Below, one piece after another: positions 3,807-39,786 of a DNA stretch of 64,000 bases. The notes under the pieces were generated by a model. It did not search any database. It saw only the letters and a program-made list of their open reading frames with translations, and was not told where the DNA came from. Every line of letters begins with the position of its first letter. The stretch's first letter is position 1. The position numbers and the translations under genes are program-made. Source of the DNA: a bacterium (GTDB lineage Bacteria > Margulisbacteria > Marinamargulisbacteria > UBA817 > JABISL01); the NCBI GenBank assembly GCA_018700055.1, contig JABISL010000050.1, forward strand, positions 99,946-163,945, read 5' to 3'.

Positions 3807-5165
3807 ATGGAAGAACGTATACCACCACAGGATATGGAAGCTGAGCAATCTGTGCTTGGCGCCATGATGTTATCTAAGGAAGCAATCGCTGCTGTTCTAG
3901 ATAAAATCAAGCCGGATGATTATTATCGAGATGGTCATAAGTTCATCTTTGAAGCCATGATCGCTCTATATCAGCGAAACGAACCTATCGACCTTGTTAC
4001 TGTCTCTGCCGAGCTAAACAAGCAGGATAAATTGGATGGCGCAGGTGGCAAGACCTATCTAATTGATGTCGTTAACTCGGTTCCTACTGCTGCCAACGTT
4101 GAACATTACGCTGGAATCGTCCGCGAAAAGTCTATTCTTCGTCGATTAATTGATACTGGTACTCATATTGTTAGTGACTCATTTGATGACAACCTTGAAG
4201 TCGACATGATCCTAGGCGATGCGCAACGCGAAATCATGGAAATCTCCAAGGATACTTCGGGCGACGAGTTTGCTCGACTTGGAACTGTTGTGGAGTCTGT
4301 CTGGGATCAAATTAGTGAATCCTACGGGACTGATGACCAGATTTTGGGTGTTCCTACTGGATTCAAAGACCTTGATCAAATGACATCTGGATTCCAACCT
4401 TCTGAATTAATTATCTTGGCCGCTCGTCCCTCCATGGGAAAGACTACTTTGGCAATGAACTTCGCTGTTAATGCGGCATTTAACCACGGTAAAACGGTAG
4501 CTGTATTTAGCTTGGAGATGCCTAAAGAACAGTTGGCGTTGAGAATGTTGTCATCCGAAGCAAAAGTGGATATGGCACGTCTGAAAACAGCTAACATCCA
4601 TGAAAATGAATATAAAGGCATTGCGAAGGCACTCGGCAAATTATCCGAAGCCAATATTTATATAGATGACACTCCGGGAATATCGCCTTTGGCAATGCGT
4701 GCCAAGTTGCGTCGTCTGGAAATGGAAGGGCCGATAGACTTGGTCTTGATTGATTATCTTCAGTTAATGCGCATTGGCAAAAAGAAAATCGAAAGTCGAT
4801 TCCAAGAGGTCTCCGAGATTGTTCGAGAAGTCAAAGGGTTGGCCAAAGAGGTGAATGTTCCGATTATCGCCTTGTCTCAGTTAAGTCGAGATGTAGAGAA
4901 ACGGGGTGGGGATACCATTCCTAAACTGAGTGACTTGAGGGAGTCTGGGGAGCTTGAGCAAACCGCTGATCTCGTTATGTTTATCCATCGTGAAGACTAT
5001 TATGATGGGACAAATTCCAATAAAACCAGTCTTACAAATCTTATTATTTCTAAGCAACGTAACGGTCCCACGGGGAGGGTTGAACTTGTCTTCCGTAAAG
5101 ATGTCTCTCGATTTGAAATGGCTAGCAGTGTTATGCCAGCGAAGTCTCCGCAGTCTACTCCTTAG
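3807..5165 (+). CDS. dnaB: Replicative DNA helicase DnaB
   Basis: N-terminal DnaB domain (QDMEAEQSVLGAMML), Walker A ARPSMGKTT, and RecA-like C-terminal domain. Confidence 0.9.
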   Translation: MEERIPPQDMEAEQSVLGAMMLSKEAIAAVLDKIKPDDYYRDGHKFIFEAMIALYQRNEPIDLVTVSAELNKQDKLDGAGGKTYLIDVVNSVPTAANVEHYAGIVREKSILRRLIDTGTHIVSDSFDDNLEVDMILGDAQREIMEISKDTSGDEFARLGTVVESVWDQISESYGTDDQILGVPTGFKDLDQMTSGFQPSELIILAARPSMGKTTLAMNFAVNAAFNHGKTVAVFSLEMPKEQLALRMLSSEAKVDMARLKTANIHENEYKGIAKALGKLSEANIYIDDTPGISPLAMRAKLRRLEMEGPIDLVLIDYLQLMRIGKKKIESRFQEVSEIVREVKGLAKEVNVPIIALSQLSRDVEKRGGDTIPKLSDLRESGELEQTADLVMFIHREDYYDGTNSNKTSLTNLIISKQRNGPTGRVELVFRKDVSRFEMASSVMPAKSPQSTP

Positions 5166-6669
5166 CAGCCTACTTATAGGGCTTTTTCTATGTAGCTCCC
5201 CTCTTTCCGCCTTTGAAATCGAAGGGCTGCCTTTGGTATTGGAAGCCAATGAAGTGGCGTATGACAATGACACCAAAGATGTGTTTGCTACAGAAAATGT
5301 TCGGATAGACTATGCTCCCTATGTCATCACCTCCGATTATTTCGAGTATGTTGCTCAAGATCGACGTCTACTTTTCAAAGGCAATGTGGTTGTTAAAGAA
5401 AAAGGTAGAACCTTTCAATCTAGGGCCTTTGAATTCGATTTTGATACCCAAAAAGGGATCGCACATGACATCAAATCTACTGTGGACGGCACTATCATTA
5501 AAGGAAAACGTTTATCTGTAACCGCCACTGAAACCACCGTCGATGAAGTAGGGTTTACCACCTGTAGTTTGGATGAACCACACTATGTTTTTCAAGCTAA
5601 TAAGGTCCGTATCTACCCCGAAACCGGTGATTTTGTCGCCAATCATAATACGGTCAATTTATTTGGGGCGCCTATTTTCTATTTCCCTACCTATGTCCAC
5701 AGCTCCAAATCCAGAACGGTGAAGCAAAACTCAACGATTCCAGAGTTTGGCTACAATCGTATAGACGGTACTTTTTTCAAACTTAACTATGCTTATTTTA
5801 TGTCGCCTCGTTCCAATGGCACGATATCTATAGGATCAACTACTTTTCGTGGCAACTTATACGGATTTAATCACCGCTTGGGACTGCACCCCGACCATCG
5901 TTTATTTATCAAAGCCTATGATGTTCAAGACACTGGGTTTGAAGGGGGATTAATCTATGAATGGGATCTTATGCGCCCCAAGGGCGGGACTTATGCTAAC
6001 AGTTTTTTTGATCAACTCTACTCCGTTTTTGCCACCAATGATCAAAGTCGAATGAGCTCTAATTTCACAGCACATTATGTCTATAATGAATCTATTAACT
6101 ATCATTTAGTGGATTACTTACCGATGGTTCAGTGGGACGTAGACCATATTCAACTTCCTTACGATTGGCAGCTCTCAACTGAGGTCTCATCCGGAGAGGT
6201 GCGCGACTCTCAAGCCAGTACCGATAGAAGTGAAGGGATTGGCGTTCTTAGTCATGAGTGGACTCTGACTGAAGACTGGTCCATGGCATCTACGTTTACC
6301 CAGTATCGAAGCTATTATGGGACAGGGGATCGATGGGAGCGTATATTGGGCACTCTAAGTTTTTCATATGAGTCGGCTCTTTTTAAGCCGGAGATCTCTT
6401 ACACCCGCTTATTTTCCGATACTGGAGGAAGCCCTTTTCTCTATGATTCCGAAAATGTCATCGCCTCTGATGAAATTGGCTTGAAACTTACTTCGAATTT
6501 GTGGGGTAAATATTTGGCTCTGGACGTCGATTATGATTTGAATGACCAATCTCTACGGGACGCCACTATAACCACCGGTCTCAAGCAGCATTGTTGGATG
6601 TTAATGGTGAGTTGGAACATGGTTTGGCAAGAATTTCGCTTGGGTGTTTCTGTTATTCCCCACGAATAG
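5101..6669 (+). CDS. LptD/OstA-like outer-membrane protein (OstA N-terminal domain), shorter than canonical LptD
   Basis: Long signal peptide (MSLDLKWLAVLCQRSLRSLLLSSLLIGLFLCSSPLSA) followed by an OstA-N-like region (VAYDNDTKDVFATENVRIDYAPYVITSDYFEY..LLFKGNVVV). The start at 5101 was chosen over 4954 because 4954..5100 lies inside dnaB. Confidence 0.5.
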   Translation: MSLDLKWLAVLCQRSLRSLLLSSLLIGLFLCSSPLSAFEIEGLPLVLEANEVAYDNDTKDVFATENVRIDYAPYVITSDYFEYVAQDRRLLFKGNVVVKEKGRTFQSRAFEFDFDTQKGIAHDIKSTVDGTIIKGKRLSVTATETTVDEVGFTTCSLDEPHYVFQANKVRIYPETGDFVANHNTVNLFGAPIFYFPTYVHSSKSRTVKQNSTIPEFGYNRIDGTFFKLNYAYFMSPRSNGTISIGSTTFRGNLYGFNHRLGLHPDHRLFIKAYDVQDTGFEGGLIYEWDLMRPKGGTYANSFFDQLYSVFATNDQSRMSSNFTAHYVYNESINYHLVDYLPMVQWDVDHIQLPYDWQLSTEVSSGEVRDSQASTDRSEGIGVLSHEWTLTEDWSMASTFTQYRSYYGTGDRWERILGTLSFSYESALFKPEISYTRLFSDTGGSPFLYDSENVIASDEIGLKLTSNLWGKYLALDVDYDLNDQSLRDATITTGLKQHCWMLMVSWNMVWQEFRLGVSVIPHE

Positions 6670-9001: not shown

Positions 9002-10354
9002 ATGAAGGTATTTCCCCCTACTTTTGTATCTTATAAGGTAATAGCAGCTTTTCCCGAAAGTTGTGTTTTCGCACTTAATCTATTAGATACCTGCTTAAAC
9101 CCTCCTCTCAAGGGTATTTTAAAATACCCTCATCGAGACTCTTCAGGGTCTCTCTCAAGCGCCAACACAACTGTCGCCGACAACACTTCTATGTCTTCTC
9201 GGGAGGGATTAGTCCTAGATGATGTATCTGATGTAAGCACTGAAGTTCTTTCTGAGTCGGGCGAATCTTTCAACGTCCCTGCCAAAGAGACTGAATTTTT
9301 ACCGAGTCCTAACGCAAAGGGACATAATGTTTTCTTTGGGGAAGACCTCATTGAGTCCGTTGATAATTATGCCAACCTCTATCCAGAATTATTTCGAAAA
9401 GATCCGACATTGATCTCCCCAACCTATTTTAGGTCGGACTTTTTCTGTGATGAGCTTAACTACGTTGGTGCAGATGTCACAGAATCGAAAGATGTCGTCC
9501 CCCCACAGTTACGCGTCGCTGAGGAACCCCTGCTACGGACTCCCTTTCAAAGGTCACGAAGTCAAAGTCATAACTTAAGTGATTTTATGACTCAATCAAA
9601 TATCGCTATCGCTCCTCCCCCCGCCCCAATACTACCTCAAGCCGAATTAGCACTAGGCAAACTAGTCAGCGCCTATAAGGAGTTTGCTAAGAATCATCCT
9701 GGCACTGACTTATCAAGTCGAGATTTACTCACCAATGTTTCCACAATGGCAAAAACGGCTGATGGATTGACTCAATTAGTTGCTCTTTCAGATCCTACTA
9801 TTGGGGACATATTGCATACCAAAGGACTCTCGCTAACGACTGATGATCAAGACAATGCTAGAAAGTGGTTGGCTGCCGTTGTCAAAATTGGAAAGGGTGG
9901 CGGTTTGGGAGAAACTCAGCTCAATCAATCACGGGCCATTTCATTCGATTCTATGAGAACGGCTATTACGAATATCCTCTTTCACTCGCCCTCTCAAAAA
10001 ACGTTTATATTCGACCTAAACTTGATCGCAAATACTGTAGAGGGATATAAGACTATTCTTATGACCCCCAGCTATTCCGAACTGTTTCATGAGGACTGTG
10101 AGTCCACGTTGTTAGATACTCCCGAAATGAGAGTCCAGTTTTTACACGCTGTCTCACAAATTGTTCGGATGAAAAGTGAGTCCACTACAGCCCTGATCCG
10201 TCAAAAAGGGTTCCAATCAACGCTAGCTACTGTTGTTACCCTCCTTACTAGTCTTGATAGGAAAGCAGACGAAATCGCTCCGATATTAGACACCATCCGA
10301 GCTAAATCCTCTACCTTGAATACAATATTAACTGAAACTTTTGGCTGCTTCTAA
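9002..10354 (+). CDS. Hypothetical protein, 450 aa, Ser/Pro-rich N-terminal half with no signal peptide
   Basis: Long ORF with consistent coding bias. No recognisable catalytic motif. Confidence 0.55.
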   Translation: MKVFPPTFVSYKVIAAFPESCVFALNLLDTCLNPPLKGILKYPHRDSSGSLSSANTTVADNTSMSSREGLVLDDVSDVSTEVLSESGESFNVPAKETEFLPSPNAKGHNVFFGEDLIESVDNYANLYPELFRKDPTLISPTYFRSDFFCDELNYVGADVTESKDVVPPQLRVAEEPLLRTPFQRSRSQSHNLSDFMTQSNIAIAPPPAPILPQAELALGKLVSAYKEFAKNHPGTDLSSRDLLTNVSTMAKTADGLTQLVALSDPTIGDILHTKGLSLTTDDQDNARKWLAAVVKIGKGGGLGETQLNQSRAISFDSMRTAITNILFHSPSQKTFIFDLNLIANTVEGYKTILMTPSYSELFHEDCESTLLDTPEMRVQFLHAVSQIVRMKSESTTALIRQKGFQSTLATVVTLLTSLDRKADEIAPILDTIRAKSSTLNTILTETFGCF

Positions 10355-10366
10355 ACGATATTTACT

Positions 10367-12220
10367 ATGAGTCATTTTTCCAGCTATATATCCCATTCCA
10401 GCAATGGGCGTTCGTTCGTCCCAGGGGGACTTTACGAAAATCAAGCGGAGAATCAGCCTATTGTACTCCCTCTGTCACAGTCTCAAAACAGATCGGCTCA
10501 GGCTGCAGCTCAACAAGCAACGAACGTTCCATCAGGGCAACGCCCTATTGTCCTACCTAGATCCAGGGCCGCTGCTTGGCAACCAGACTACCAACACCAT
10601 TCTCACCCCTTTCCTTTGCCACCTCATTTCCAACCGCCTAAAACGACTCCAGATTCTATTGCGCATCAAACTAAAAATGCCATTATCGACGCGCTGACGC
10701 CCCCTTACGTTCGCGATAAACTAGTGTCTTTACCACATCATTTTTCAACCTTAACACAGCTAGTTCACCACCTCCCTCTAAATGATCGAACTCTATTGTT
10801 ACGCTCAATTGATCAAACACTATCTACAGAGGAAGGGCGAAACTGTCTGACATCCTATCATTTTACTTCGCCTACGATAGCTTCTTTCTTAGCGACTCTG
10901 GGTCGAACCTTAGACCCTGCAGACCATTCTTTATTATCCCCCTCTATTGAGACTCTATCTCTATCCCCCGAAGGTCTAAAACAGCTCATTCATAAACCAT
11001 TTTTTACACCTCTATTCCAAAATAATCCCCAAAATTCTTTTATGTTTAATACCCCTGAAAAACGACAGATTATTCTACAAACACTCGGCGAGGCCTTTCA
11101 AACTGGATCATCTCACAGAGAGCGTTTCTCTCAAGCCCCCTTTAAAGACCTGGTTATTGAGATCGCAAAGTACACTAAAAAGAATACCCCCGAATTATTT
11201 AAGCCTATGAAGATTCATGTTCTACAGTTAGCGAATTCCGTTCCTGAGATTGGAGAAGCATTGCTACGAGCCGGTGTTATTCATCGTCACCAGCCGCCTG
11301 TTCAGGCGCCACCCTCCTCAGTAGCTGCAATTCGAAACAGTTTAATCCGTACCATTGAGAATAATCCCTCTCAGTCTATTTCTGATCAACCTCAGGAAAC
11401 TGCAGCACCTCCACTAACTCTTTCTGCTGCAATGCAGGCCTTGTTGGGGCCCCCAACTATTCGACCTTTAACTAGTTCTGCGCGCTCATCATCTAACACA
11501 CAGCCCTCTCATGCACTAAGAGCATCTCCTATTACTACGTCATCATCACATGAAGTTGTCCCACCGACACTCTCTCAAACAGAAATAGAAGCCCAACGAA
11601 ACAACTCTATTGATAGTGCTATTGAGAAGAGTGCTCGACACTTTAAAAACATAAAGAACTGTTGTCAGCATATCGTTAATTTTATTGTCTTATCGACTTT
11701 GGGGTTAGAAGAGCATGCCAATCGAATTCCTAAGAAACCATGTAACAATACCTATGATATTAAACATTATCCCACCCCCGTTAAAAGAGAAGGGGGGCTA
11801 CCTCAATACCTTGCGAATACTACTGAAGTCGTTAGTAATATTTCCTTAACACGTTATTCCCCATACGGAACGACGTGGACCATTGATTTGACAGGTGATG
11901 TCCCCGAAGAATCCTACCACCATCATACTCAGTCTATTGCAAAAGCATGGCCCTATTATTCTGTTGATAATGCTGACGACGTTTTGACAGAAATGTTACA
12001 AAAATATAATCATTGCTCATTCGTTATTGTTGAAATTGGGGCGTCTGGATCCCTAGGAGGTCATTCACTCTTGTGTGTTAAAAATGGATCATCTCTCTAT
12101 CTAATAAATAATGGGGCTAAAGTCCTTCAAAAATCCCCCTCTCACCTTGAACTATCCGTTTTCCTCAAAAAGGAAGATTTTAATGTTATGGGGTTAAGGG
12201 TGCTCCACAGCGAAACCTAA
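10367..12220 (+). CDS. Hypothetical protein, 617 aa, Pro/Gln/Ser-rich N-terminal region with a repeated PIVLP motif and a globular C-terminal ~200 aa
   Basis: Long ORF. Low-complexity effector-like N-terminus. The C-terminal region has a Cys..His..Asn spacing loosely reminiscent of papain-fold enzymes (weak). Confidence 0.55.
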   Translation: MSHFSSYISHSSNGRSFVPGGLYENQAENQPIVLPLSQSQNRSAQAAAQQATNVPSGQRPIVLPRSRAAAWQPDYQHHSHPFPLPPHFQPPKTTPDSIAHQTKNAIIDALTPPYVRDKLVSLPHHFSTLTQLVHHLPLNDRTLLLRSIDQTLSTEEGRNCLTSYHFTSPTIASFLATLGRTLDPADHSLLSPSIETLSLSPEGLKQLIHKPFFTPLFQNNPQNSFMFNTPEKRQIILQTLGEAFQTGSSHRERFSQAPFKDLVIEIAKYTKKNTPELFKPMKIHVLQLANSVPEIGEALLRAGVIHRHQPPVQAPPSSVAAIRNSLIRTIENNPSQSISDQPQETAAPPLTLSAAMQALLGPPTIRPLTSSARSSSNTQPSHALRASPITTSSSHEVVPPTLSQTEIEAQRNNSIDSAIEKSARHFKNIKNCCQHIVNFIVLSTLGLEEHANRIPKKPCNNTYDIKHYPTPVKREGGLPQYLANTTEVVSNISLTRYSPYGTTWTIDLTGDVPEESYHHHTQSIAKAWPYYSVDNADDVLTEMLQKYNHCSFVIVEIGASGSLGGHSLLCVKNGSSLYLINNGAKVLQKSPSHLELSVFLKKEDFNVMGLRVLHSET

Positions 12221-18260: not shown

Positions 18261-19094
18261 ATGAACCTAACCGTTAACGGCGACCCAATGGATGTGGCGG
18301 CTTCTAACCCCACGGTCGCAGATGTTGTGTCTCAACTTAAGTTAAACCCGGCTCATATTGTCGCGGAACATAATGGTGAGGTGCTTAGCTCGGAGCGCTT
18401 TGGTACACCCGTCTATGATGGTGATAAGCTCGAACTCGTTCGGTTTATGGGTGGTGGTGCTATCACAGCACCAGATCACTTTGAGACTCAGTGGGATAAC
18501 ATTGCCAAGTCTTCCCCAAAAGAAAATATGGCCTATGACGCCCAGTTACTGGAAACTCTCTCCGACTCTACTCGAGTGTTTCGTCTCTACCAATGGCCCA
18601 GCCCAGGAATAACTTATAGCTACAAACAAACATTACCTGAAACGTTACAATCCCAAGCCAATAGCTCCCGAATCACTGGTGGCGGGGTTGTGTTTCATGA
18701 GACTGGCGACGGGCTATTCACCGCAATCGGTTGGTTAACAGACCCGATGTTTCCCAAACGTCTCAAAGATAAAATGGCCTTTTTTAGCGACCAGTTACAT
18801 GACGCCTTTTTAAAAATAGAAATCCCTCTCGACGCCAATGAATCAGAGGGGCCAATCGACAGAGACTACTGTAAGCAATACCCCAACCCTTTTGAGCTAT
18901 CCTTGAATGGCGAAAAAATTGTGGCGTTAACACTTAGACGGTTTAAGGATCGGTTTATTATGCAAGGCATATTGCATTTACATTCCATTGACTCAAATGT
19001 ATCTTGGCAAGCCTTAAGTGAGGCAATTCAGTCCAGCTTTACTGGACTGAAGACAACGATCGAAGAAGAGACGGAAGCTCCGTCAAATCTTTGA
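18261..19094 (+). CDS. Fusion protein: N-terminal ThiS/MoaD-like beta-grasp domain (~65 aa, internal GGG) plus lipoate/octanoate-protein ligase (LplA/LipB/LipM) catalytic domain
   Basis: N-terminus (MNLTVNGDPMDV..VVSQL..GDKLELVRFMGGG) matches ThiS-like proteins. The C-terminal domain carries the BPL/LPL signature (RITGGGVVFHETGDG, equivalent to RRSSGGGAVFHD) and the conserved Lys region (GEKIVALTLRRFKDRFIMQG). Confidence 0.55.
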   Translation: MNLTVNGDPMDVAASNPTVADVVSQLKLNPAHIVAEHNGEVLSSERFGTPVYDGDKLELVRFMGGGAITAPDHFETQWDNIAKSSPKENMAYDAQLLETLSDSTRVFRLYQWPSPGITYSYKQTLPETLQSQANSSRITGGGVVFHETGDGLFTAIGWLTDPMFPKRLKDKMAFFSDQLHDAFLKIEIPLDANESEGPIDRDYCKQYPNPFELSLNGEKIVALTLRRFKDRFIMQGILHLHSIDSNVSWQALSEAIQSSFTGLKTTIEEETEAPSNL

Positions 19095-21372
19095 TAATAA
19101 GAACATTAAGCTGGGAAGGAATGGAAATTTCTTCTTCCTCAAAATTCCAAGCGCTAGCTACTACTGTAGTAATTCCCAACTGAGACGCAGCCAATAGCTT
19201 TTGTTCCAATGCTTCTGTGGGAAGCACCTTTCCTAATAGTGATATTTGACCTGCAAACGCGACAGTGGCCTGCAAAGGCAAATCAAGAATAGCCGATAAA
19301 ATAGCCGTAAATACAGCTAACCCCCACCCCTCACCTTTCTTTTCTAACTGCTGCTTGTGAAAATGAACATGCACATCCTGAGACGTTAGTATTTCGGCAG
19401 ATAACCCAAATTCTTTATGGTGGGTCTTAATATAGGAAATCGTCGTTTTGATTGTTTCTTGAAGAAGTGGATCTATATTCCCCGTTGCCAAAATTTGTCC
19501 CGTTCCTGAATAAACTGCCGCTTCAATAGGCAAACAGTTACCAATCATACCCACCGTATAGAGCGCAACCGATCTACCTGAACGCGGTTCGGTTGAGAAA
19601 TTGGGCTTGGAAATCCCTGGCCCCAAGAACTCCTGAATAGTCGTTTCACTTAACTCCGCAGGCAATGGTTCTCCGGACACCTTTTTGAGGGCCAGTTTTC
19701 TTAATAATCGCTGAAAACACCGGTCCAATTCACGCAACCCAACATCTGCTGTGTAGTGTGCGATTAAATGCTCAAGAAATGCACGATTCATCTTAATTTT
19801 AAGTTTGCTAAGCCCATGAGCCTTAATCTGTTTGGGCAAAAGATAATGCTGCGCCAATTCAATTTTTTCGGACAGTGTATACCCAGAGATCTGAATAATT
19901 TCTAATCGATTCAGAAGTGGAGCGGGGATATCACTCATGTTATTGGCCGTACAAATAAATAAGGTTTGGGAAAGGTTAAATGGCACTTGGATATAATGAT
20001 CCATAAATGTGTCATTCTGCTCCGGATCAAGGATTTCCAATAGGACGGAAGAAGGGTCTCCTTTAAATCCAGACGCCATTTTGTCTATCTCATCCAAGAG
20101 TATTACCGGATTGATAGACTGTGCCTTATAGATAGCCGAAATAATTTTGCCTGGTAAGGCGCCAACATACGTCCGTCGATGTCCACGCAAGTCCGCTTCA
20201 TCACGAATCCCACCTAAGGCAATCCGATAGTACTTGCGGTCCAAAGCCTTAGCGACACTTTTTACCACAGATGTTTTACCCACACCTGGAGGGCCAACCA
20301 AACACAAAATATTAGAGGTCGGATTCTTGGATAATTTCTTAACCGCTAGGTATTCAAGGATACGTTCTTTGACATCATCCAATCCAAAATGACGCTTACT
20401 AAGCGTTTCTCTTACCTTATTAATATTCAATCGATTGCGCGTTTGCTTACGCCAAGGAAGGTCCAATACAAAATCTAAATGGGCACGAATTACGCCGGCT
20501 TCAGTGGATTCATCCGGGGACCGTTCCAGTTTATTGATTTCTTTTTCGATCTCTAAATGGGCATCGCTCGTTAGCGCCAGTTCACGAAGTCGCTCTCTAT
20601 ACCGATTAATTTCTTCTTCTTGTGAACTCTGCCCCAACTCCATCTGAATCGCACGGAGCTTGGCCTTTAGCAACATTTCCTTCCGCTCAGTTTCTACATT
20701 ACTCTGTACTATCCCATCAATGCTCTGTTCCAAGTTGGCATCAATAATCAATTGGTTAAGATGGCTCAAAACCTTTTCTAATCGACTACTGACAAGTGTT
20801 TCTTCTAGAATTTCTTGCTTTTCACTAAGATTCAAGTCCAAGTAAGATCCTATAAGATCTGTCAGCTCTGCAGGTTTATCAACGTCCAGAATGGCTAGAA
20901 TCGTATCATCTAAAACCTCTCCTGCCGCATTTAAATGTTCTTTAAATCGTTGGTATACCGTATTGGTTTGAGCGCTTAGGTCTTCAGGTTCTACTTGATC
21001 AAAAACAGGCTCAATATCTGCCAAAAGAATCCCATCGTCAGATAGGTGAATGTTCTTTACCCAGACCTTTTCTTGGCCCTCAACTAAAAGTCGTGCTGGG
21101 CCATCTACTTGATCCTGAAATTGAACGACCTCACAACGGACGCCAATATCATGAAGTTCCTCTTCTGAGATTTGGTCCAAAGTTGTATTGCTACCAATGG
21201 GTCTTTTGGGCAAAACGATAACGCACTCTTTGGGTCCGCCTTCAGGGTCTTCTAGGCTATCATTTGGACAAAATTGAGTTTGGATCTGCTGAACAGTGTT
21301 TGGAAAAACAAACCCTTGTTCGATAGGTACTACAAATCTGGTTGTTGTTGGGGTTTTGGCCACTGGGCTCAC
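19039..21372 (-). CDS. lon: Lon-family AAA+ protein (LonA architecture) with a substituted protease catalytic dyad
   Basis: LAN domain, Walker A GPPGVGKTS, Walker B ILLDEIDK. The protease domain aligns to E. coli Lon, but Ser679 (DGPSAG) reads GEGWGL and Lys722 (GGLKEK) reads EALEQK. Confidence 0.8.
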   Translation of the reverse strand: MSPVAKTPTTTRFVVPIEQGFVFPNTVQQIQTQFCPNDSLEDPEGGPKECVIVLPKRPIGSNTTLDQISEEELHDIGVRCEVVQFQDQVDGPARLLVEGQEKVWVKNIHLSDDGILLADIEPVFDQVEPEDLSAQTNTVYQRFKEHLNAAGEVLDDTILAILDVDKPAELTDLIGSYLDLNLSEKQEILEETLVSSRLEKVLSHLNQLIIDANLEQSIDGIVQSNVETERKEMLLKAKLRAIQMELGQSSQEEEINRYRERLRELALTSDAHLEIEKEINKLERSPDESTEAGVIRAHLDFVLDLPWRKQTRNRLNINKVRETLSKRHFGLDDVKERILEYLAVKKLSKNPTSNILCLVGPPGVGKTSVVKSVAKALDRKYYRIALGGIRDEADLRGHRRTYVGALPGKIISAIYKAQSINPVILLDEIDKMASGFKGDPSSVLLEILDPEQNDTFMDHYIQVPFNLSQTLFICTANNMSDIPAPLLNRLEIIQISGYTLSEKIELAQHYLLPKQIKAHGLSKLKIKMNRAFLEHLIAHYTADVGLRELDRCFQRLLRKLALKKVSGEPLPAELSETTIQEFLGPGISKPNFSTEPRSGRSVALYTVGMIGNCLPIEAAVYSGTGQILATGNIDPLLQETIKTTISYIKTHHKEFGLSAEILTSQDVHVHFHKQQLEKKGEGWGLAVFTAILSAILDLPLQATVAFAGQISLLGKVLPTEALEQKLLAASQLGITTVVASAWNFEEEEISIPSQLNVLIIKDLTELPSLLRSLSSVQ

Positions 21373-21404: not shown

Positions 21405-22718
21405 CTAAGCGGCTAATTTTGCTTTCGTCTCACTTTTATTATCGATCTCTTTGAGTAATTCTTCACTCAATTCCGTGGACAACTTGTCCTTAATATATTG
21501 AGTGACATTATCTTTAGTAATCGTAATTTTTTTGGCCTTCCCATCTTCTGGGATATTGTACATATGATCCATCATGATTTCTTCGACAATACTTCTTAAG
21601 GCACGGGCCCCAACCTTGCGCTTAATCGCGATCTTGGCTATGAGTACCAATGCATCATCCTTAAACGTTAAGTCTATATTATCCATCTTCATTAGTTTTT
21701 GAAATTGCTTGGTCAAAGCGTTTTGGGGATCCTTGAGGATTGAGAGCAATGCCGTTTCATCCAATTCATGCAGCGGCGCCAAAATTGGTAACCGTCCAAT
21801 AAACTCTGGAATGAGTCCAAATTTCAATAAATCTTCTGGCTGAATCTGCTCAAAGATTGTTTCTCTTTCAGCCGTCACTTCTTTTTGACCGTCTTCGGTC
21901 AAAAAGCCCATAGATCGTTTGTTAATTCGTTTTTCAATTATCTCTTCAACGCCATGAAACGCTCCGCCGGCAATAAACAAGATATTGGCTGTATCTAAGA
22001 GTACAAATTCTTGCTGTGGATGTTTTCGTCCGCCACGTAATGGAACGTTTACCTTGGACCCTTCCAAAAGTTTGAGTAAGGCTTGTTGAACCCCTTCGCC
22101 AGAAACATCTCTTGTAATGGATGCGCTTTCGGATTTTCGAGTAATCTTATCAATTTCGTCCAAATAGATAATGCCTCTCTCTGCTTTTTTCACATCATTA
22201 TCGGCAACCTGAAGCAGGCGCAACAACATGCTTTCCACATCTTCTCCGACATACCCAGACTCGGTAAGTGTCGTGGCATCCGCTATCGTAAACGGCACGT
22301 TCAGTAGCTTGGCTAAGGTCTGAGCAATAAGCGTCTTGCCTGTTCCTGTAGGACCAACCAACATGATGTTACTCTTCTGAAGCTCAGTATCCGGATACGC
22401 ATCGGTCTTTTTGAAAATTCGTTTGTAATGGTTATATACACCAACTGAAATGACTCGTTTAGCGATATCTTGCCCAATAATATGTTTGTTTAGCCACTCA
22501 TTAATTGCCTTAGGCTTGGGAAGAACCATTTGCTCAGCGTCGTCAGCGACGTCGACCGTCTCCGCCTTTTTTTGGCTCTCTTCTTCATGGATAACCGTTG
22601 CGCAAACGTCTATACACTCATCACAAATGTATATGCCTGGACCAGCAACAAGTCGAGTCACTTGGTCTTGGTGCTTGTTACAAAACGAACATACTATCGG
22701 GTCTTTTTCTTTTGTCAT
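21405..22718 (-). CDS. clpX: ATP-dependent Clp protease ATP-binding subunit ClpX
   Basis: N-terminal C4 zinc finger (CSFCNK..CDEC). Walker A GPTGTGKT. Confidence 0.9.
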
Positions 22719-22741: not shown

Positions 22742-23413
22742 TTATTTAGAGCCCTTTTTATTCTTTTTTTTCTTTTCATCCAAATCATGTTTAGTGATTA
22801 CTTGATCAATAAGGCCATAGCTTACTGATTCTTCGGCACTTAAGAAGAAGTCACGGTCCGTATCTTCTTGAATCTTCTTCATTGGTTGTCCCGTTTGATT
22901 CACAAGGATTGTGTTCAATGAATCCTTAAGGCGTTGAATCTCTTGGTTTTGGATTTGGATATCCGATGCTTGTCCTTGTGCGCCACCTAGGGGTTGGTGA
23001 ATCATCACTCGCGCTTGAGGTAAGGCAAACCGTTTTCCCTTTTCGCCTGCTGTAAGTAACAACGCACCCATCGAAGCCGCTTGTCCCATACATATCGTAG
23101 AAACATCACACTTGATATAGTTCATTGTGTCATAAATTGCCAAGCCTGCTGTTACTACGCCGCCCGGACTGTTGATATAGAGGTAAATGTCCTTTTCAGG
23201 GTCTTCCGCTTCTAGAAAAAGCATCTGCGCCACAATGAGGTCGCCCATATTCTCTTCTACCTGTCCTGTTAGAAAAATAATCCGTTCTTTTAAAAGACGA
23301 GAAAAAATATCGTAAGATCTCTCTCCGCGTCCAGTTTGCTCAACAACCATTGGTACTAAACCTGACATAGTATTTATTTTTTTAGACATATTATTCCCTT
23401 TCGTTTCACCCAT
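22742..23413 (-). CDS. clpP: ATP-dependent Clp protease proteolytic subunit ClpP (start may be an internal Met; Lys-rich C-terminal tail)
   Basis: Ser-His-Asp triad context is conserved ([21 protein letters not shown]). Confidence 0.85.
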
Positions 23414-23476: not shown

Positions 23477-24763
23477 CTACTTAACTTTGGCTGTTGAAAC
23501 CAACAACTCAATTACTTTTTCTTCTTTGATGGCCGCTTTGACGTTATCCAAATCATATTGAGGACTTTTTTCAAGGTCCGCAACAGTATTGATATCTTTG
23601 ATATTCCATTTGGCCAATGTTGCTTCGATGTCTTCGTTAGAAGGCTCAATTTTTTCTTTTTGAGCCACTTCTTTAAGGACCAATGTGGACTTCACTCTTA
23701 GTTGAGCTGCCTCACGTGTCTCATTACGGATATCATCCATAGTCTTTTGTGTGAATTGCGCATACTGCTCCAGAGTTAACCCTGAATGCTTAAGGTTATG
23801 CTCCATTTGATGCATCGCCATATCCATTTCACGTTGAATCATCGCTTCTGGAATAGTAATCGTCACATTGTTAGTGACCTCAGTAATGATGGCTTCTTTT
23901 AGCTTCGTTTCAGATTCTTTGTCACGGGTTTCTTGTAAGTTCCCTTTGATTTCTGTTTTAAAAAGAGCAACATCTTTTTTCTCACCTGATATTTTTTCGA
24001 CGATCTCTTCCGTTAGTTCAGGAAGTTGTTTTTCACGGATTTCACTAATCTCGATATCAAAGTCTACCGTTTTGCCAGCTACTTCAGGAATATTGAAATC
24101 ATCTGGGTAAGCTACAGTAAATGCTTTTTGAGCACCTGTTTTCAAACCAGTTACTTCGACATCAAACTCAGGTCCGTAATAAGCAGCGCCAATACGTGCG
24201 CCAGAGTTTTCGCGTGTCCATTGCTCATATGCAACGCCATCAATCGTAGCCTTCAAGTTGAATCGAAGAATATCTTCGTCCTTGGCTTCACGAGTAACTT
24301 CATTATATTCCGCATGGTTTTCGCGTAATTTGTCCAATTCCGCTTGAAGATCTTCATCCGTAACCGTTGTAGGTTCTTTGACGACCTTCACACCTTTATA
24401 TTTACCCAATTTAACAATTGGCTCTACTTCCACATCCAGAGTGAATCGAATAGGTTTGTCTTCTTTATATGTTGTAAAATCAACGTTCTGTGGGTAGTCC
24501 ACAACGTCCAACTTAAGTTCTGTAATGGCGTCTTTATAAGCGTCATTAGTTAAGAAGCCTAGTGCCTCTTCCATCAATGGGCCTTTTCCATAGTTTTTTT
24601 CAAATATTACACGGGTTATTTTTCCAGGACGAAATCCAGGAATCTTGGCGTGTTTTTTGACCTTGTGAAAGGCTTTGTCCATACAAGCATCTAGCTTGCT
24701 GTGATCTTCTTCGATCTCAAGACTTACAATGTTTTCTTTACGTTTTGATTTAATTACTTTCAT
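23477..24763 (-). CDS. tig: Trigger factor
   Basis: N-terminal ribosome-binding region with GFRPGK motif. The start was set at MKVIKSK (24763) rather than the ORF-track Met 20 codons upstream. Confidence 0.8.
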   Translation of the reverse strand: MKVIKSKRKENIVSLEIEEDHSKLDACMDKAFHKVKKHAKIPGFRPGKITRVIFEKNYGKGPLMEEALGFLTNDAYKDAITELKLDVVDYPQNVDFTTYKEDKPIRFTLDVEVEPIVKLGKYKGVKVVKEPTTVTDEDLQAELDKLRENHAEYNEVTREAKDEDILRFNLKATIDGVAYEQWTRENSGARIGAAYYGPEFDVEVTGLKTGAQKAFTVAYPDDFNIPEVAGKTVDFDIEISEIREKQLPELTEEIVEKISGEKKDVALFKTEIKGNLQETRDKESETKLKEAIITEVTNNVTITIPEAMIQREMDMAMHQMEHNLKHSGLTLEQYAQFTQKTMDDIRNETREAAQLRVKSTLVLKEVAQKEKIEPSNEDIEATLAKWNIKDINTVADLEKSPQYDLDNVKAAIKEEKVIELLVSTAKVK

Positions 24764-24885
24764 GGTATATCTCCTTTCAAATAGGACATCAATTATGTCG
24801 GTTAGAGATTGTACCACGCGCACGAGTTTGAGGCTATAGATTTGGGCCTATTTTGATTTGGAAGACACTTGTTCTAGGCGCTTAC

Positions 24886-26081: not shown

Positions 26082-27191
26082 TTACCTCAAAAAGACAGTC
26101 GCAGCCTGGTCATAGAGATCAGGATTGGCAGGTAATGTATCCGATAGTGTCTTAAGTTGAGATTGCGCCGCTTTGTAGTCGTCTTCAGAAGAGATTATCG
26201 ATAAAATTTTGTTGGCTATTTTTTTGGGGCAAATATCATTCTGGCGATACTCAGGAACGACTTCGCTTCCCATAATAATGTTAGGTAACCCTATAAAAGG
26301 AAACTTGAATCTTAATAGGTACGTGACAATCAAATAGGAAATCGGCGAAAGGGCACCCATGATCACTTGAGGAATACCTAAAAGTGCCGTTCTGAGGGTC
26401 GCCGTTCCCGCAAAATTAACCACAAAATGGGCACGTGACTCCCAAGGTGTTTCAGAGTCCCACACTGCGATAATATCATCGTGGTTTTTCATAAGGTCCT
26501 CAACTATAGGACGCAGTCTGGTATTGGGACAAACTACCCAACATTTAATAGATTGGTCCGTACTTAATCGTTTGGCAATCTTGCACATCTGAGGGAACAA
26601 GCGTTTAATTTCGGTTTCTCTTGTTCCGGGATTAAAAATAATTACTTTTTGCTCATGTTTAGAGGGAAGTTTGGGATATTTTGGGGTTAGATCCAATGTC
26701 AGTGGGTGACCAAAATAATGACAGTTTGTGGCGCCTAACCCTTCATAAAATTTCCTCTCAGACTCAAATATTGTCACTATTTCGTTGCTGTAGCTAGCTA
26801 GCTTCCGACCCCCACGCTTGTCATTCCAAATCCAAAAATTGGGAGTAATGAGTGTGGATATTGAAATATTGAGCGCTTGCAATGTCTCAGCAATTGCCAA
26901 GTTCATATGCGGATAATCAATAATGATAGCCTTTCTAACGAAGCGTCCTTTTCCAAATTTATGTATCGTATCGAGAAGCTGCTTTTTTTTGTCCTTCTTA
27001 CCCCAGTTTTCGGTAATTCCCACAGCATGACTGTAAGCTGTTTCCATTAAAAAATCATCGGCAACGCCCTGCAGTTTGGCACCGCCAATCGCCGCTATTC
27101 GAGTGTTGGGAGACTTCTTTTTGATTGCCTTTACTAGCTCAGCTCCATAATGGTCTGATGACATTTCACCGGCAATAACCAGGATACTCAT
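26082..27191 (-). CDS. lpxB: Lipid-A-disaccharide synthase
   Basis: N-terminal ILVIAGEMSSDHYGAEL plus GT19-family layout. Confidence 0.85.
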   Translation of the reverse strand: MSILVIAGEMSSDHYGAELVKAIKKKSPNTRIAAIGGAKLQGVADDFLMETAYSHAVGITENWGKKDKKKQLLDTIHKFGKGRFVRKAIIIDYPHMNLAIAETLQALNISISTLITPNFWIWNDKRGGRKLASYSNEIVTIFESERKFYEGLGATNCHYFGHPLTLDLTPKYPKLPSKHEQKVIIFNPGTRETEIKRLFPQMCKIAKRLSTDQSIKCWVVCPNTRLRPIVEDLMKNHDDIIAVWDSETPWESRAHFVVNFAGTATLRTALLGIPQVIMGALSPISYLIVTYLLRFKFPFIGLPNIIMGSEVVPEYRQNDICPKKIANKILSIISSEDDYKAAQSQLKTLSDTLPANPDLYDQAATVFLR

Positions 27192-27193: not shown

Positions 27194-28453
27194 CTAGTCT
27201 GTTTCAGATTCTTCGATAGAGGTTTTTTTGGATATGCCTCGAGAAGATCCTTCCTTAAGGAACTCTATTAGCAATTTGATTTGATCGGTTTCACAAGCGC
27301 CTGTTTCGATTTCTTCCAATGCTTGTTTGATATTCATACTGGATCGATAGAGTAGTTTGTAGGCGTTTTTGAGTTCTTTTAACTCTGTCGCTGAGAGTCC
27401 TGCACGACGCAAGCCAACCACATTAAGATTGCGAACATACGCAGGGTTTCCATCACACAACATAAAGGGAGGGACATCTTGAATTAGTCGGGAATACCCG
27501 CCAGACATTGACCCGCGACCTACTCGAACGAATTGATGAACCCCGGTTAAACCACCAATTATCGCCTTATCATCAATCACCACATGGCCGCCAACATGCA
27601 CCATATTAGCTAACGTAGTACTGTTACCCACCACGCAATTGTGTCCAATATGAACATTGGTAAGGAACATATTGTCACTTCCGATTTGAGTGACTTCATT
27701 CTTGCCTGTAGCTCTATTAATCGTTACGTATTCACGAATTTGATTACGATCACCAATTACCACCCAAGATTTTTCGCCCTGATACTTCATGTCTTGTGGA
27801 CCAGATCCAATGACTGAGCCGAAATGAATATGGTTTTCTTCGCCAATCTTGGTCCATTTTTCAATATACACATGAGCTTCTATTCTGGTCTTGTCGCCAA
27901 TCTGAACGTTCTCACCAATGATACTATAAGGGCCAACTATGACGTCCTTTCCTAATATCGCGGTGGGATGAACCGATGCAGTTGGGTGAATCTGAGCCTT
28001 AGTAGGTTGCTGAGTAAGTGTAAAAAGAAGTCCGCCTTCACAAACAATCGCGTCGTTGCATAAGACTTTGCCTTCAAATGTGATGGTTTCTTCTTTGCGT
28101 TTGGTTACTTCTACTTCTATACGAAGTTGATCGCCAGGATTTACATCGCGATGAAACTCTATCTTCTGCGCTTGGGAAAATGTTGGGCGTTGGCCAGACA
28201 AGTCCTTGTTACTCAATAGTATTGTAGTAGCCGCCTGCGTCATGGTTTCTAAGATCAATGCACCGGACATTACGGGACTAGACATTCCATCATCCTGGAA
28301 AAAAGGATCGTTACTACTTACAGATTTGATTGCAATAATACGTTCATTGGGAACCAATTCTAAAATACGATCTAGTAAAAGATGAGGGGTGCGTTGCGAT
28401 AAAACATCTTGCACGTCTGTTGCTGTCATGGGCTTATTATAGTTGATTGCCAC
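27194..28453 (-). CDS. lpxA: Fusion protein: FabZ-like hotdog domain (catalytic His replaced) plus UDP-GlcNAc acyltransferase LpxA
   Basis: N-terminal ~150 aa aligns to FabZ (TPHLLLDRILEL..NDPFFQDDGMSSPVMSGALILETMTQAA), but GHFPG reads DDGMS. The C-terminal left-handed beta-helix has hexapeptide repeats and the LpxA catalytic His context (VHIGHNCVVGN). Confidence 0.8.
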   Translation of the reverse strand: MAINYNKPMTATDVQDVLSQRTPHLLLDRILELVPNERIIAIKSVSSNDPFFQDDGMSSPVMSGALILETMTQAATTILLSNKDLSGQRPTFSQAQKIEFHRDVNPGDQLRIEVEVTKRKEETITFEGKVLCNDAIVCEGGLLFTLTQQPTKAQIHPTASVHPTAILGKDVIVGPYSIIGENVQIGDKTRIEAHVYIEKWTKIGEENHIHFGSVIGSGPQDMKYQGEKSWVVIGDRNQIREYVTINRATGKNEVTQIGSDNMFLTNVHIGHNCVVGNSTTLANMVHVGGHVVIDDKAIIGGLTGVHQFVRVGRGSMSGGYSRLIQDVPPFMLCDGNPAYVRNLNVVGLRRAGLSATELKELKNAYKLLYRSSMNIKQALEEIETGACETDQIKLLIEFLKEGSSRGISKKTSIEESETD

Positions 28454-39273: not shown

Positions 39274-39350
<77 letters not shown>

Positions 39351-39441
39351 ATAGTTAGGGTCGAAATTGATTGGGGGACTGATGCGGGGAGTTTTTCTTC
39401 TACCCTTTTTCTACCCGGATGCATTTAACTAGGAGGCTGTT

Positions 39442-39777: not shown

Positions 39778-39786
39778 CGTTTGATT

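What the first reader, a model, noticed from the sequence alone, without database searches (positions are those of the whole stretch)
19039..21372. Lon homolog in the conserved tig-clpP-clpX-lon cluster has lost both protease catalytic residues
The LAN domain and the AAA+ module (GPPGVGKTS, ILLDEIDK, arginine-finger region) are well conserved. In the protease domain the Ser679 equivalent reads GEGWGLAV instead of DGPSAG, and the Lys722 equivalent reads EALEQK instead of GGLKEK. The DNA confirms TGG at the Ser codon. This predicts an ATPase or unfoldase-only pseudo-protease, possibly acting as a chaperone or adaptor, with an active Lon encoded elsewhere.
Basis: partly seen in the sequence, partly recalled or inferred. 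Interest (0 to 1): 0.55.

Follow-up and report, generated by a model that had tools for sequence, protein, structure and literature searches.

The report
Natural serine-less Lon protease homolog
The lon gene in this uncultured aquatic bacterium (probably Margulisbacteria) sits in its usual place after tig-clpP-clpX but has lost the serine that cuts proteins while keeping an intact ATP motor, and the change is conserved in a small ancient clade, so it looks like a natural "unfoldase-only" Lon.

Summary
ORF 19039-21372 (-) is a full-length LonA (N domain, AAA+, lid, Lon_C) directly after tig-clpP-clpX. The nucleophile Ser (EcLon S679) is Gly682 (GGG). The TGG Trp is the next residue, not the Ser codon.

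This is not an error or a decaying gene:
- The K-x-G-x-G-W-[GD]-L motif is shared by a monophyletic clade (99-100/100 bootstraps).
- The clade has about 7 representatives among 1.84 billion and 3 of 185,579 GTDB species, and always follows tig-clpP-clpX.
- Canonical Lons of related lineages occupy the same slot, so it is the positional ortholog.
- All motor motifs are intact.
- The dead P domain is under strong purifying selection (pN 0.035-0.077 with pS saturated), although P and N domains diverged faster over the long term.

Best reading: a natural LonA pseudoprotease acting as an ATP-driven unfoldase or chaperone. No second Lon was found, but whole genomes could not be searched. No prior description was found.

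The parts
19039..21372 (-). lon* : full-length LonA homolog without the catalytic Ser. It is 777 aa from GTG 21372; the probable true start is GTG 21363, giving 774 aa. The stop codon is at 19039-19041.
   Evidence: ORF list. TIGR00763 635 bits and the Pfam four-domain architecture. 100% identical to database protein P0001 / NCBI MBT5856470.1. Shine-Dalgarno spacing favours 21363.
20443..21372 (-). N-terminal region (residues ~1-310): Lon substrate-binding N domain plus long helical/coiled-coil region. This is the fastest-evolving part. The canonical PLR and VGR invariants are lost and there is a small insertion near residues 56-63.
   Evidence: Pfam PF02190 matches only residues 62-207. Clade-versus-canonical column comparison. 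About 30% identity within the clade against 48% for canonical pairs at equal ClpX divergence. AF2 pLDDT mostly above 85.
19603..20442 (-). AAA+ module plus lid (residues ~311-590) with intact Walker A (360-368), pore-loop-1 Tyr402, Walker B D427/E428, sensor-1 N477, Arg finger R489 and sensor-2 R547.
   Evidence: Motif alignment of the clade against canonical Lon. Normal evolutionary rate of 56% against 58%. Foldseek TM 0.88-0.90 to LonA AAA+/P structures.
20269..20295 (-). Walker A motif GPPGVGKTS (residues 360-368).
   Evidence: Identical in canonical Lon.
20080..20103 (-). Walker B motif ILLDEIDK (residues 424-431).
19042..19602 (-). Lon_C (S16) protease-fold domain, residues ~591-777. It is catalytically degenerate but under purifying selection.
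   Evidence: Pfam PF05362 111 bits, profile positions 3-183 of 205. AF2 pLDDT 81-95. pN 0.077 and 0.035 in two clade pairs with saturated pS.
19321..19341 (-). Degenerate nucleophile motif K678-K-G-E-G682-W683-G684, replacing canonical K-D-G-P-S-A-G. G682 (GGG, 19327-19329) occupies the Ser position; W683 (TGG, 19324-19326) occupies the Ala position.
   Evidence: phmmer alignment to MtaLon and its S678A mutant. MAFFT of 120 sequences. Codons. G and W are invariant in all clade members and fragments.
19252..19254 (-). Ala707, replacing the invariant Thr of the canonical M-T-G-E motif (AFAGQ here).
   Evidence: canonical T in 100% of sequences, clade A/S/M. An activity-important Thr is mentioned in PMC6722904.
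19198..19215 (-). E720-A-L-E-Q-K725, replacing canonical G-G-(L/V)-K-E-K. K725 (AAG, 19198-19200) is the retained catalytic-Lys equivalent (Ser position + 43).
   Evidence: Dyad spacing from PMC9569914. K725 lies in predicted helix 722-731, as the catalytic Lys does in canonical Lon.
21405..22718 (-). clpX, 32 nt upstream of lon* on the same strand, with no terminator in the gap.
   Evidence: The same adjacency occurs in all clade loci, with gaps from -4 to 52 nt.
22742..23413 (-). clpP with an intact Ser-His-Asp triad (GQAASMG, IHQP, DTDRD).
23477..24823 (-). tig (trigger factor), the first gene of the conserved tig-clpP-clpX-lon array.

Best explanation
lon* is a naturally proteolysis-dead LonA (a pseudoprotease) that descends in situ from the ordinary lon of the tig-clpP-clpX-lon cluster.

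Shown:
- The nucleophile Ser is Gly. The LonA-defining Pro before it is Glu. The MTGE Thr, the GG pair and most residues that are invariant around the canonical active site and substrate groove are replaced.
- The replacement motif K-x-G-x-G-W-[GD]-L-x-[IV]-F is fixed in a monophyletic clade.
- The AAA+ motor motifs and the LonA fold are intact.
- The P domain is under strong purifying selection.

Inferred:
- The protein still forms the Lon hexamer, binds and hydrolyses ATP, and threads polypeptides with its pore-loop Tyr, but cannot cleave them.
- It therefore works as an ATP-dependent unfoldase, chaperone or remodeller. It would release or pass on substrates instead of degrading them, as engineered Ser-to-Ala Lon does.
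- The remodelled P-domain ring is kept as the hexamerisation scaffold and exit chamber. The invariant Trp at the N-cap of the former active-site helix is part of a new conserved surface.
- Faster change in the N (substrate-selection) domain suggests a changed clientele.
- Bulk ATP-dependent proteolysis in these cells would fall to the intact ClpXP encoded immediately upstream, and to proteases encoded elsewhere.
For: - Architecture and family.
- Dyad mapping: with spacing and the Pro-Ser rule from PMC9569914.
- Clade-wide fixed substitutions at about 25 canonical-invariant P-domain positions.
- Motor motifs all intact in 10 clade members.
- Fold: AF2 pLDDT 88, with G682/W683 at the N-cap of helix 684-696 and K725 in helix 722-731. 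Foldseek TM 0.88-0.90 and rmsd 2.3-3.0 Å to LonA hexamer chains.
- Selection: pN in the P domain is 0.077 and 0.035, no higher than the AAA+ module (0.077, 0.106), clpX (0.083, 0.059) or clpP (0.050), with pS about 0.72-0.76.
- Monophyly: 99-100/100 bootstraps.
- Positional orthology: Ser-less loci and canonical loci all read tig-clpP-clpX-lon.
- Adjacent ClpP triad intact.
- Precedent: LONP1 S855A keeps ATPase-dependent anti-aggregation activity while Walker mutants lose it (PMC8368198). Non-catalytic Lon-like domains serve as oligomerisation scaffolds in RadA and ComM (PMC11612176).
Against: - No biochemistry exists for any member. ATPase activity, hexamer formation and lack of peptidase activity are all inferred from sequence.
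- Lys725 is conserved in most members, which could hint at residual chemistry rather than a purely structural role.
- P-domain conservation between close relatives is as strong as in the motor, which is more than a bare scaffold might need.
- Whether an active Lon exists elsewhere in these genomes is unknown, so a role as a subunit of a mixed complex is not excluded.
- Expression was not examined.
Confidence: 0.62

Rival explanations
1. lon* is a non-catalytic subunit that co-assembles with, or regulates, an active Lon paralog encoded elsewhere in the genome. This would be analogous to ClpR with ClpP or FtsHi with FtsH, and it is the reader's 'active Lon elsewhere' idea.
For: - Dead paralogs of AAA+ proteases commonly work in mixed rings (FtsHi, PMC8197885).
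- LONP1 S855A forms mixed oligomers with the wild type (PMC8368198).
- Strong purifying selection on the P domain would fit a conserved inter-subunit interface.
Against: - lon* is the positional ortholog of the ordinary lon, not an added paralog (against 13, 19, 40).
- There is no second Lon in the 64-kb window.
- The nearest canonical Lons belong to other genomes.
- None of the unclassified canonical hits had accessions near those of the Ser-less MAGs.
- This negative is weak, because complete MAGs could not be searched.
Confidence: 0.15
2. lon* is still a peptidase that uses a non-canonical mechanism. Examples would be the retained Lys725 activating water, or a different nucleophile recruited into the remodelled site.
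For: - Lys725 is conserved in most members.
- The remodelled site is itself highly conserved, with G682, W683, L685 and F688 invariant.
- The P domain is under selection as strong as the motor.
Against: - No Ser, Thr or Cys replaces the nucleophile: the position is invariably Gly.
- The activity-linked Thr, the Pro-Ser, the GG pair and the substrate-binding strand residues (canonical G-L-A-W-T) are all lost.
- Lys is Arg or Ser in clade members P0010, P0022 and P0407.
- A review of more than 21,000 Lon-family members states that only A- and B-type active centres are known (PMC9569914).
Confidence: 0.08
3. lon* has been repurposed as a nucleic-acid-directed ring motor or DNA-binding factor. This would resemble other ATPases that carry a non-catalytic Lon-like domain (RadA/Sms, ComM, BrxL).
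For: - Non-catalytic Lon-like domains in RadA and ComM are needed for oligomerisation and DNA translocation (PMC11612176).
- Weak NCBIfam and PDB similarity of the P domain to RadA and BrxL.
- By my own knowledge, canonical Lon binds DNA.
Against: - The ATPase is a typical Lon-type AAA+ with the polypeptide pore-loop Tyr and flanking GHRR-x-Y-[VI]-G motif conserved.
- Scores for RadA (21 bits against a cutoff of 403) and BrxL (40 against 628) are far below threshold.
- The genomic context is proteostasis (tig-clpP-clpX), not recombination or defence.
Confidence: 0.06
4. The substitution is an artefact or the gene is a decaying pseudogene.
For: - One relative (L004) has a frameshift.
- Several database entries are short fragments.
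Against: - The same motif occurs in intact ORFs from many independent assemblies and samples, from JGI, NCBI, ENA/TARA and Logan.
- pN is far below pS.
- The fragments come from a noisy long-read assembly in which every gene is broken, and L004 is a very low-coverage contig.
Confidence: 0.02

Closest known systems
LonA ATP-dependent protease (MEROPS S16.001; E. coli Lon, Meiothermus taiwanensis LonA, human LONP1)
   Same: - Same domain order and fold: N domain, long helix, AAA+, lid, Lon_C.
- 35-40% identity to solved LonAs.
- All motor motifs are present.
- Same genomic slot after tig-clpP-clpX.
- The catalytic-Lys equivalent is retained.
   Different: - The nucleophile Ser is Gly and the 'always Pro' residue before it is Glu.
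- The MTGE Thr, the GG pair and about 25 canonical-invariant P-domain residues are replaced.
- The N-terminal PLR and VGR motifs are lost.
- P and N domains evolve faster than in canonical Lon.
Engineered proteolytically inactive Lon (EcLon S679A, MtaLon S678A, LONP1 S855A, yeast Pim1 Ser mutant)
   Same: No nucleophile but an intact ATPase. S855A LONP1 keeps ATPase-dependent chaperone-like anti-aggregation activity (PMC8368198). This is the functional model for lon*.
   Different: Those are single-residue laboratory mutants with an otherwise native active site. lon* is a natural, anciently fixed variant whose whole active-site neighbourhood has been remodelled around an invariant Gly-Trp.
Pseudoproteases derived from AAA+ or self-compartmentalising proteases (plant FtsHi, cyanobacterial/plastid ClpR)
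   Same: Homologs of active proteases that lost catalytic residues yet are conserved and functional. FtsHi keeps its AAA+ module (PMC8197885).
   Different: FtsHi and ClpR are extra paralogs that coexist and co-assemble with active paralogs. lon* occupies the ancestral lon locus and no active Lon partner has been found. It also belongs to a different protease family (S16, versus M41 and S14).
Non-catalytic Lon-like domains in other ring ATPases (RadA/Sms, ComM, BrxL, YifB/Mg-chelatase ChlI-type)
   Same: The Lon_C fold is kept without proteolysis and used as a ring or oligomerisation scaffold (PMC11612176).
   Different: Those proteins have RecA- or MCM-type ATPases, act on DNA and have different architectures. 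lon* is a bona fide LonA in every other respect. NCBIfam scores for RadA and BrxL are far below their cutoffs.
LonC (Meiothermus taiwanensis LonC, MEROPS S16.007)
   Same: A Lon sub-family in which one of the two activities has degenerated (PMC9569914).
   Different: It is the mirror image: LonC lost essential ATPase residues but keeps an active Ser-Lys protease, whereas lon* keeps the ATPase and lost the protease Ser.

Membership tests
LonA (endopeptidase La, TIGR00763 / MEROPS S16 subfamily A) | N-terminal Lon substrate-binding domain plus long helical region | tested here: met
   PF02190 87.6 bits over residues 62-207. AF2 beta-rich N domain and a long helix at 194-245. The first ~60 residues are divergent.
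LonA (endopeptidase La, TIGR00763 / MEROPS S16 subfamily A) | Single uninterrupted AAA+ module with Walker A/B, sensor-1, Arg finger, sensor-2 and pore-loop Tyr | tested here: met
   All motifs are present and conserved across the clade. PF00004 and PF22667 hits.
LonA (endopeptidase La, TIGR00763 / MEROPS S16 subfamily A) | C-terminal S16 (Lon_C) fold | tested here: met
   PF05362 111.5 bits. Foldseek TM 0.88-0.90 to LonA AAA+/P chains.
LonA (endopeptidase La, TIGR00763 / MEROPS S16 subfamily A) | Catalytic Ser in the A-type centre, preceded by Pro (D-G-P-S-A-G) | tested here: not met
   K-G-E-G682-W-G: Ser is Gly and Pro is Glu. The rule comes from PMC9569914.
LonA (endopeptidase La, TIGR00763 / MEROPS S16 subfamily A) | Catalytic Lys 43 residues after the Ser | tested here: met
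   K725 = 682 + 43 in an ungapped alignment. It is lost in clade members P0010 (Arg), P0022 (Ser) and P0407 (Arg).
LonA (endopeptidase La, TIGR00763 / MEROPS S16 subfamily A) | Curated HMM score above the cutoff | tested here: inconclusive
   TIGR00763 scores 635.2 against 608.05, passing narrowly. NF008053 scores 487 against 891 and fails.
LonA (endopeptidase La, TIGR00763 / MEROPS S16 subfamily A) | ATP-dependent endopeptidase activity | not testable with these tools
   Requires purified protein. It is predicted absent from the missing nucleophile.
Pseudoprotease of an AAA+ protease family (FtsHi/ClpR-like category) | Clear homology to an active protease, with the catalytic residue substituted | tested here: met
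Pseudoprotease of an AAA+ protease family (FtsHi/ClpR-like category) | Substitution evolutionarily fixed and the gene under purifying selection (not a pseudogene) | tested here: met
   Monophyletic clade, invariant G-W and pN far below pS.
Pseudoprotease of an AAA+ protease family (FtsHi/ClpR-like category) | Coexists or co-assembles with an active paralog | tested here: inconclusive
   None in the 64-kb window and none identified among candidates. Complete genomes were not searchable.
RadA/Sms, ComM, BrxL (ATPases with a non-catalytic Lon-like domain) | Family HMM above cutoff, with a RecA- or MCM-type ATPase and a zinc finger | tested here: not met
   TIGR00416 scores 21 against 403, TIGR02653 scores 40 against 628 and TIGR00368 scores 19 against 362. 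The ATPase is Lon-type.
LonB / LonC / LonBA | Family HMM above cutoff; membrane insertion in the AAA+ module (LonB) or a degenerate ATPase (LonC) | tested here: not met
   TIGR00764 scores 62 against 517, and TIGR02902/TIGR02903 are far below their cutoffs. The ATPase motifs are intact.

The most novel reading that the evidence does not exclude
In this clade of uncultured aquatic bacteria the only Lon is a dedicated, non-proteolytic ATP-driven unfoldase. The ancestral housekeeping protease would have been converted in place into a chaperone or remodeller with a new conserved Gly-Trp surface inside the former proteolytic chamber. Degradation would be left to the co-transcribed ClpXP. That would be a natural separation-of-function experiment on Lon's long-debated chaperone activity.
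Probability: 0.35. Interest if true: 0.7.

Novelty: new variant of a known kind. Interest (0 to 1): 0.55.

Why it matters
Whether Lon has a physiologically important chaperone or unfoldase role independent of proteolysis has been argued for decades, almost entirely from engineered Ser-to-Ala mutants. A LonA that evolution has kept for a long time without its nucleophile would show that the non-proteolytic activity alone can be worth maintaining. The relevant features here are an intact motor, a selected and remodelled P domain, and residence in the ancestral tig-clpP-clpX-lon slot. It offers a ready-made natural protein for biochemistry and cryo-EM, for example to ask what happens to a translocated chain when it cannot be cut and what the invariant Trp does. 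It also warns that automatic 'endopeptidase La' annotations (such as MBT5856470.1) can be functionally wrong. The practical reach is limited: the clade is small, uncultured and uncharacterised.

Tried and rejected
1. dN/dS on the six P0009-type loci (L008-L013). The genes are identical at the DNA level, so they carry no information. I replaced them with the P0003/P0005 and P0007/P0008 pairs. There dS is saturated, so only pN and an upper bound on dN/dS are meaningful.
2. The first tree attempt with Biopython BLOSUM distances timed out. I redid it with Kimura distances. The deep placement of the clade is unresolved because of its long branch.
3. Search for a second Lon. phmmer of canonical Lon and of its P domain against all six-frame ORFs of the window hit only lon*. 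The best canonical hits (P0011, P0012, P0112) proved to be orthologs in other genomes. Unclassified '[bacterium]' canonical Lons had MFH accessions, not MBT ones. This is a weak negative only.
4. The short 'P-domain-only' proteins on 250-315 kb contigs could have been stand-alone dead protease domains. I rejected that idea because L022 shows every gene fragmented in a noisy long-read assembly.
5. The apparent ClpP triad loss in L008 was a regex artefact; the triad is intact.
6. The CIRCE heat-shock operator search found 0 matches. The promoter and terminator scan was not above shuffled expectation.
7. Literature searches for a described natural LonA pseudoprotease, or for Lon in Margulisbacteria, found nothing relevant.
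8. An alternative alignment placing Trp on the Ser position was rejected. The K, G and G anchors of K-x-G-x-x-x-G and two independent ungapped alignments fix the register.


Full report
**1. What is at the coordinates**

The window has a 777-aa ORF at 19039-21372 on the minus strand. It lies 32 nt downstream of clpX (21405-22718), which follows clpP (22742-23413) and tig (23477-24823).

A Shine-Dalgarno-like AAGGGAAG lies about 8 nt before the second GTG (21363). This supports the 774-aa start used by JGI and NCBI for the identical database protein, P0001 / MBT5856470.1 'endopeptidase La [bacterium]'. I number residues from 21372.

Pfam finds LON_substr_bdg (62-207), AAA (356-494), Lon_lid (517-568) and Lon_C (575-755, 111 bits). 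NCBIfam TIGR00763 'endopeptidase La' scores 635 bits against a cutoff of 608. The enterobacterial-type model NF008053 scores 487 against 891. The best solved relatives are Meiothermus, E. coli, Thermus and Bacillus LonA and human LONP1, with E down to 1e-143.

**2. The catalytic residues, re-mapped**

- The ungapped phmmer alignment to MtaLon puts query K678-K-G-E-G-W-G684 on K-D-G-P-S-A-G. In the S678A mutant chain (7ypj/7ypk) that stretch reads DGPAAG, which marks the Ser position experimentally.
- The Ser equivalent is therefore Gly682 (GGG, 19327-19329). Trp683 (TGG, 19324-19326) replaces the following Ala.
- PMC9569914 gives the EcLonA dyad as Ser679/Lys722 and stresses that the Ser-Lys distance is identical in other Lons (445/488). 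That distance is 43 residues, so the second K of GG(L/V)KEK is catalytic.
- In the query 682 + 43 = Lys725, the last residue of E-A-L-E-Q-K. There is no indel in between in either phmmer or MAFFT. The catalytic Lys is therefore retained. What is lost is the GG pair (E720, A721) and the first K (E723).
- The same paper states that the residue before the Ser is 'always a proline' in LonA. Here it is Glu681.
- The invariant Thr of M-T-G-E is Ala707.

**3. It is a conserved sub-family, not a lesion**

- Among the best 120 homologs, 11 share K-x-G-x-G-W-[GD]-L-x-[IV]-F (P0001-P0010, at 43-59% identity, plus the degenerate P0022). All the others carry KDGPSAG...GGxKEK.
- An exhaustive HMM search was run with the clade's P-domain profile against 1.84 billion 50%-identity representatives. 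There is a sharp score gap (at least 171 bits, then at most 142). Only about 7 representatives carry the G-W motif.
- A motif scan of one genome per 185,579 GTDB species found just three loci. One is labelled Candidatus Margulisiibacteriota/Margulisbacteria by its submitters; the others are labelled 'bacterium'.
- Sources are aquatic or marine: TARA, Saanich Inlet, the Caspian Sea and a lagoon.
- Of 331 full-length LonA-type sequences gathered, 311 have the full dyad, 18 are this clade, and 2 have isolated Lys changes.
- Gly and Trp are invariant in every member and fragment. The +43 Lys is kept except in P0010 (Arg), P0022 (Ser) and P0407 (Arg).
- A neighbour-joining tree on the AAA+ module recovers the clade in 99/100 bootstraps, and in 100/100 on the full length. 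This implies a single origin. The deeper placement is unresolved.

**4. It is the ancestral lon, changed in place**

Every Ser-less locus with enough flank reads tig-clpP-clpX-lon*, with clpX-lon gaps from -4 to 52 nt. This holds for the window and for L001/L003, L008-L013, L018, L019, L021 and L022. Downstream genes differ between loci.

Canonical Lons occupy exactly the same slot in their own genomes. These include P0112 from a Margulisiibacteriota MAG and P0011/P0012, the best-scoring canonical hits to lon*. lon* is therefore the positional ortholog of ordinary lon, not an added paralog.

The neighbouring ClpP keeps its Ser-His-Asp triad in all these genomes. No terminator or above-chance promoter separates clpX and lon*, and no CIRCE element is present.

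**5. What is conserved and what is not**

- Intact in all clade members: Walker A (GPPGVGKTS), the pore-loop-1 motif GHRR-x-Y-[VI]-G, Walker B (LDE[IVL]DK), sensor-1 Asn, the Arg finger and the sensor-2 Arg.
- Replaced: about 25 positions that are at least 90% invariant in canonical P domains. These include the G-L-A-W-T substrate strand, G634, P-E-G 672-674, D679, P681, S682, A683, M706, T707, E709, T711, R713, GG 720-721, K723, E724 and P740. Many of the replacements are fixed within the clade.
- The N-terminal PLR and VGR invariants are also gone.
- Canonical Margulis/Saganbacteria Lons are 60-65% identical to each other but only about 38% identical to lon*.

Domain identities at matched ClpX divergence of 55-59%:

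| Pair type | N domain | AAA+ | P domain |
|---|---|---|---|
| canonical vs canonical | 48% | 58% | 59% |
| Ser-less vs Ser-less | ~30% | ~56% | ~40% |
| Ser-less vs canonical | 22-34% | 49-56% | 26-34% |

The motor keeps its normal rate. The cleavage and substrate-selection domains shifted and evolve faster over long times.

Between close relatives the P domain is strongly constrained. Its pN is 0.077 (P0003/P0005) and 0.035 (P0007/P0008) with pS about 0.72-0.76. This is equal to or lower than the AAA+ module (0.077, 0.106), clpX (0.083, 0.059) and clpP (0.050). Because dS is saturated, only an upper bound can be given, but dN/dS is clearly far below 1.

**6. Structure**

AlphaFold2 with a 61-sequence alignment gives mean pLDDT 88 and pTM 0.63. 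P-domain blocks score 81-95, except the loop at 671-680 (68) just before the former nucleophile.

G682/W683 cap helix 684-696 and K725 lies in helix 722-731. This matches the canonical arrangement, with the Ser just before α3 and the Lys within α4 (PMC9569914).

Foldseek aligns the AAA+/P body to LonA hexamer chains with target-normalised TM 0.88-0.90 and rmsd 2.3-3.0 Å (4ypl_F, 6u5z_A, 6on2_D). Model coordinates could not be inspected, so the orientation of Trp683 is unknown.

**7. Interpretation**

- Shown: a natural, anciently fixed, purifying-selected LonA without its nucleophile and with a remodelled active-site region. It has an intact motor and sits in the ancestral operon position.
- Inferred: it hexamerises, hydrolyses ATP and threads polypeptides but does not cleave them. 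It would act as an unfoldase, chaperone or remodeller.
- Model for this inference: LONP1 S855A retains ATPase-dependent anti-aggregation activity, whereas Walker A/B mutants do not. Proteolytically inactive yeast Lon supports complex assembly (PMC8368198).
- Retention of a non-catalytic Lon-fold ring as an oligomerisation scaffold has precedent in RadA and ComM (PMC11612176).
- I put about 0.85 on 'not a Ser-Lys peptidase' and about 0.6 on the full unfoldase/chaperone statement.

**8. Rivals**

- (a) Subunit or regulator of a mixed ring with an active Lon elsewhere (0.15). This is not excluded, because whole MAGs could not be searched, but nothing supports it.
- (b) Residual or novel peptidase chemistry around Lys725 (0.08). 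The invariant Gly and the loss of every auxiliary residue argue against it.
- (c) A DNA-directed motor like RadA, ComM or BrxL (0.06). The Lon-type pore loop and the proteostasis context argue against it.
- (d) Artefact or pseudogene (0.02). This is refuted by multi-source conservation and selection. The fragments are explained by a noisy long-read assembly (L022) and one frameshifted low-coverage contig (L004).

**9. Novelty**

Searches of 8 million full texts found no description of a natural LonA lacking the Ser, or of Lon in Margulisbacteria. [quoted passage not shown]

Pseudoproteases derived from AAA+ proteases are an established concept (FtsHi, PMC8197885; ClpR by my own knowledge). Inactive Lon mutants are well studied. 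I therefore class this as a new variant of a known kind. It is moderately surprising to a specialist and experimentally attractive, but confined to a small uncultured clade and so far supported by sequence inference only.

Noticed in passing
window 39274-47995: tRNA-Arg(tct) at 39274-39350 is followed by a phage-type integrase (40890-42065), a RhuM/Fic protein (42203-43237) and a 1132-aa DUF4116 protein (44597-47995). GC dips to 0.39-0.43 in this region. It is probably an integrated mobile element at the tRNA.
   Followed up: partly
window 53165-63928 (-): A giant 3587-aa ORF has no Pfam match at E<=1e-5. It fills the last 10.8 kb of the window.
   Followed up: partly
window 49124-52243 (+): A 1039-aa thermolysin-like (M4) metallopeptidase carries an FTP propeptide, fn3 and FlgD-Ig-like domains. 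It is likely a secreted or surface protease.
   Followed up: no
window 18261-19094 (+): A ThiS-like domain is fused to a lipoyl-protein-ligase (LplA/B) catalytic domain. The gene converges on lon* and overlaps its 3' end by 56 bp. The same neighbour occurs next to lon* in L018, L004 and L021, and as two separate genes in L019.
   Followed up: partly
window 27194-28453 (-) and 26082-27191 (-): A FabA/FabZ-like dehydratase domain is fused to LpxA (hexapeptide plus Acetyltransf_11) in one 419-aa ORF, next to lpxB. These are lipid-A genes, consistent with a diderm envelope.
   Followed up: no
window 4954-6669, 9002-10354, 10367-12220 (+): Three sizeable ORFs (571, 450 and 617 aa) have no Pfam match. 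The 10-12 kb stretch also has an unusually negative GC skew (-0.24).
   Followed up: no
L004 7477-9776: The lon* ortholog on this very low-coverage Caspian MAG contig is split by a single frameshift within the sensor-2 region. It is either a sequencing error or a real disruption. Its P domain still reads KKGEGWGLAIFA...NDIDLK.
   Followed up: partly
L022 (ENA smallLagoon contig, 315 kb): All genes (tig, clpP, clpX, lon*) are fragmented into short ORFs in this pilon-polished long-read contig. This explains the short 'Lon_C-only' proteins in the databases (P0403, P0405, P0406, P0408, P0136).
   Followed up: yes
proteins P0177, P0182, P0347: There are isolated dyad anomalies outside the clade. 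P0177 is a 281-aa fragment reading RDAAGAG, with Gly at the Ser position. P0182 has Lys replaced by Arg, and P0347 has GGLKET, with Lys replaced by Thr. These may be independent losses or errors.
   Followed up: no
window 21363 vs 21372: The ORF-finder start (GTG 21372) is probably not the real one. The Shine-Dalgarno spacing and the database models favour GTG 21363, which gives a 774-aa protein.
   Followed up: yes
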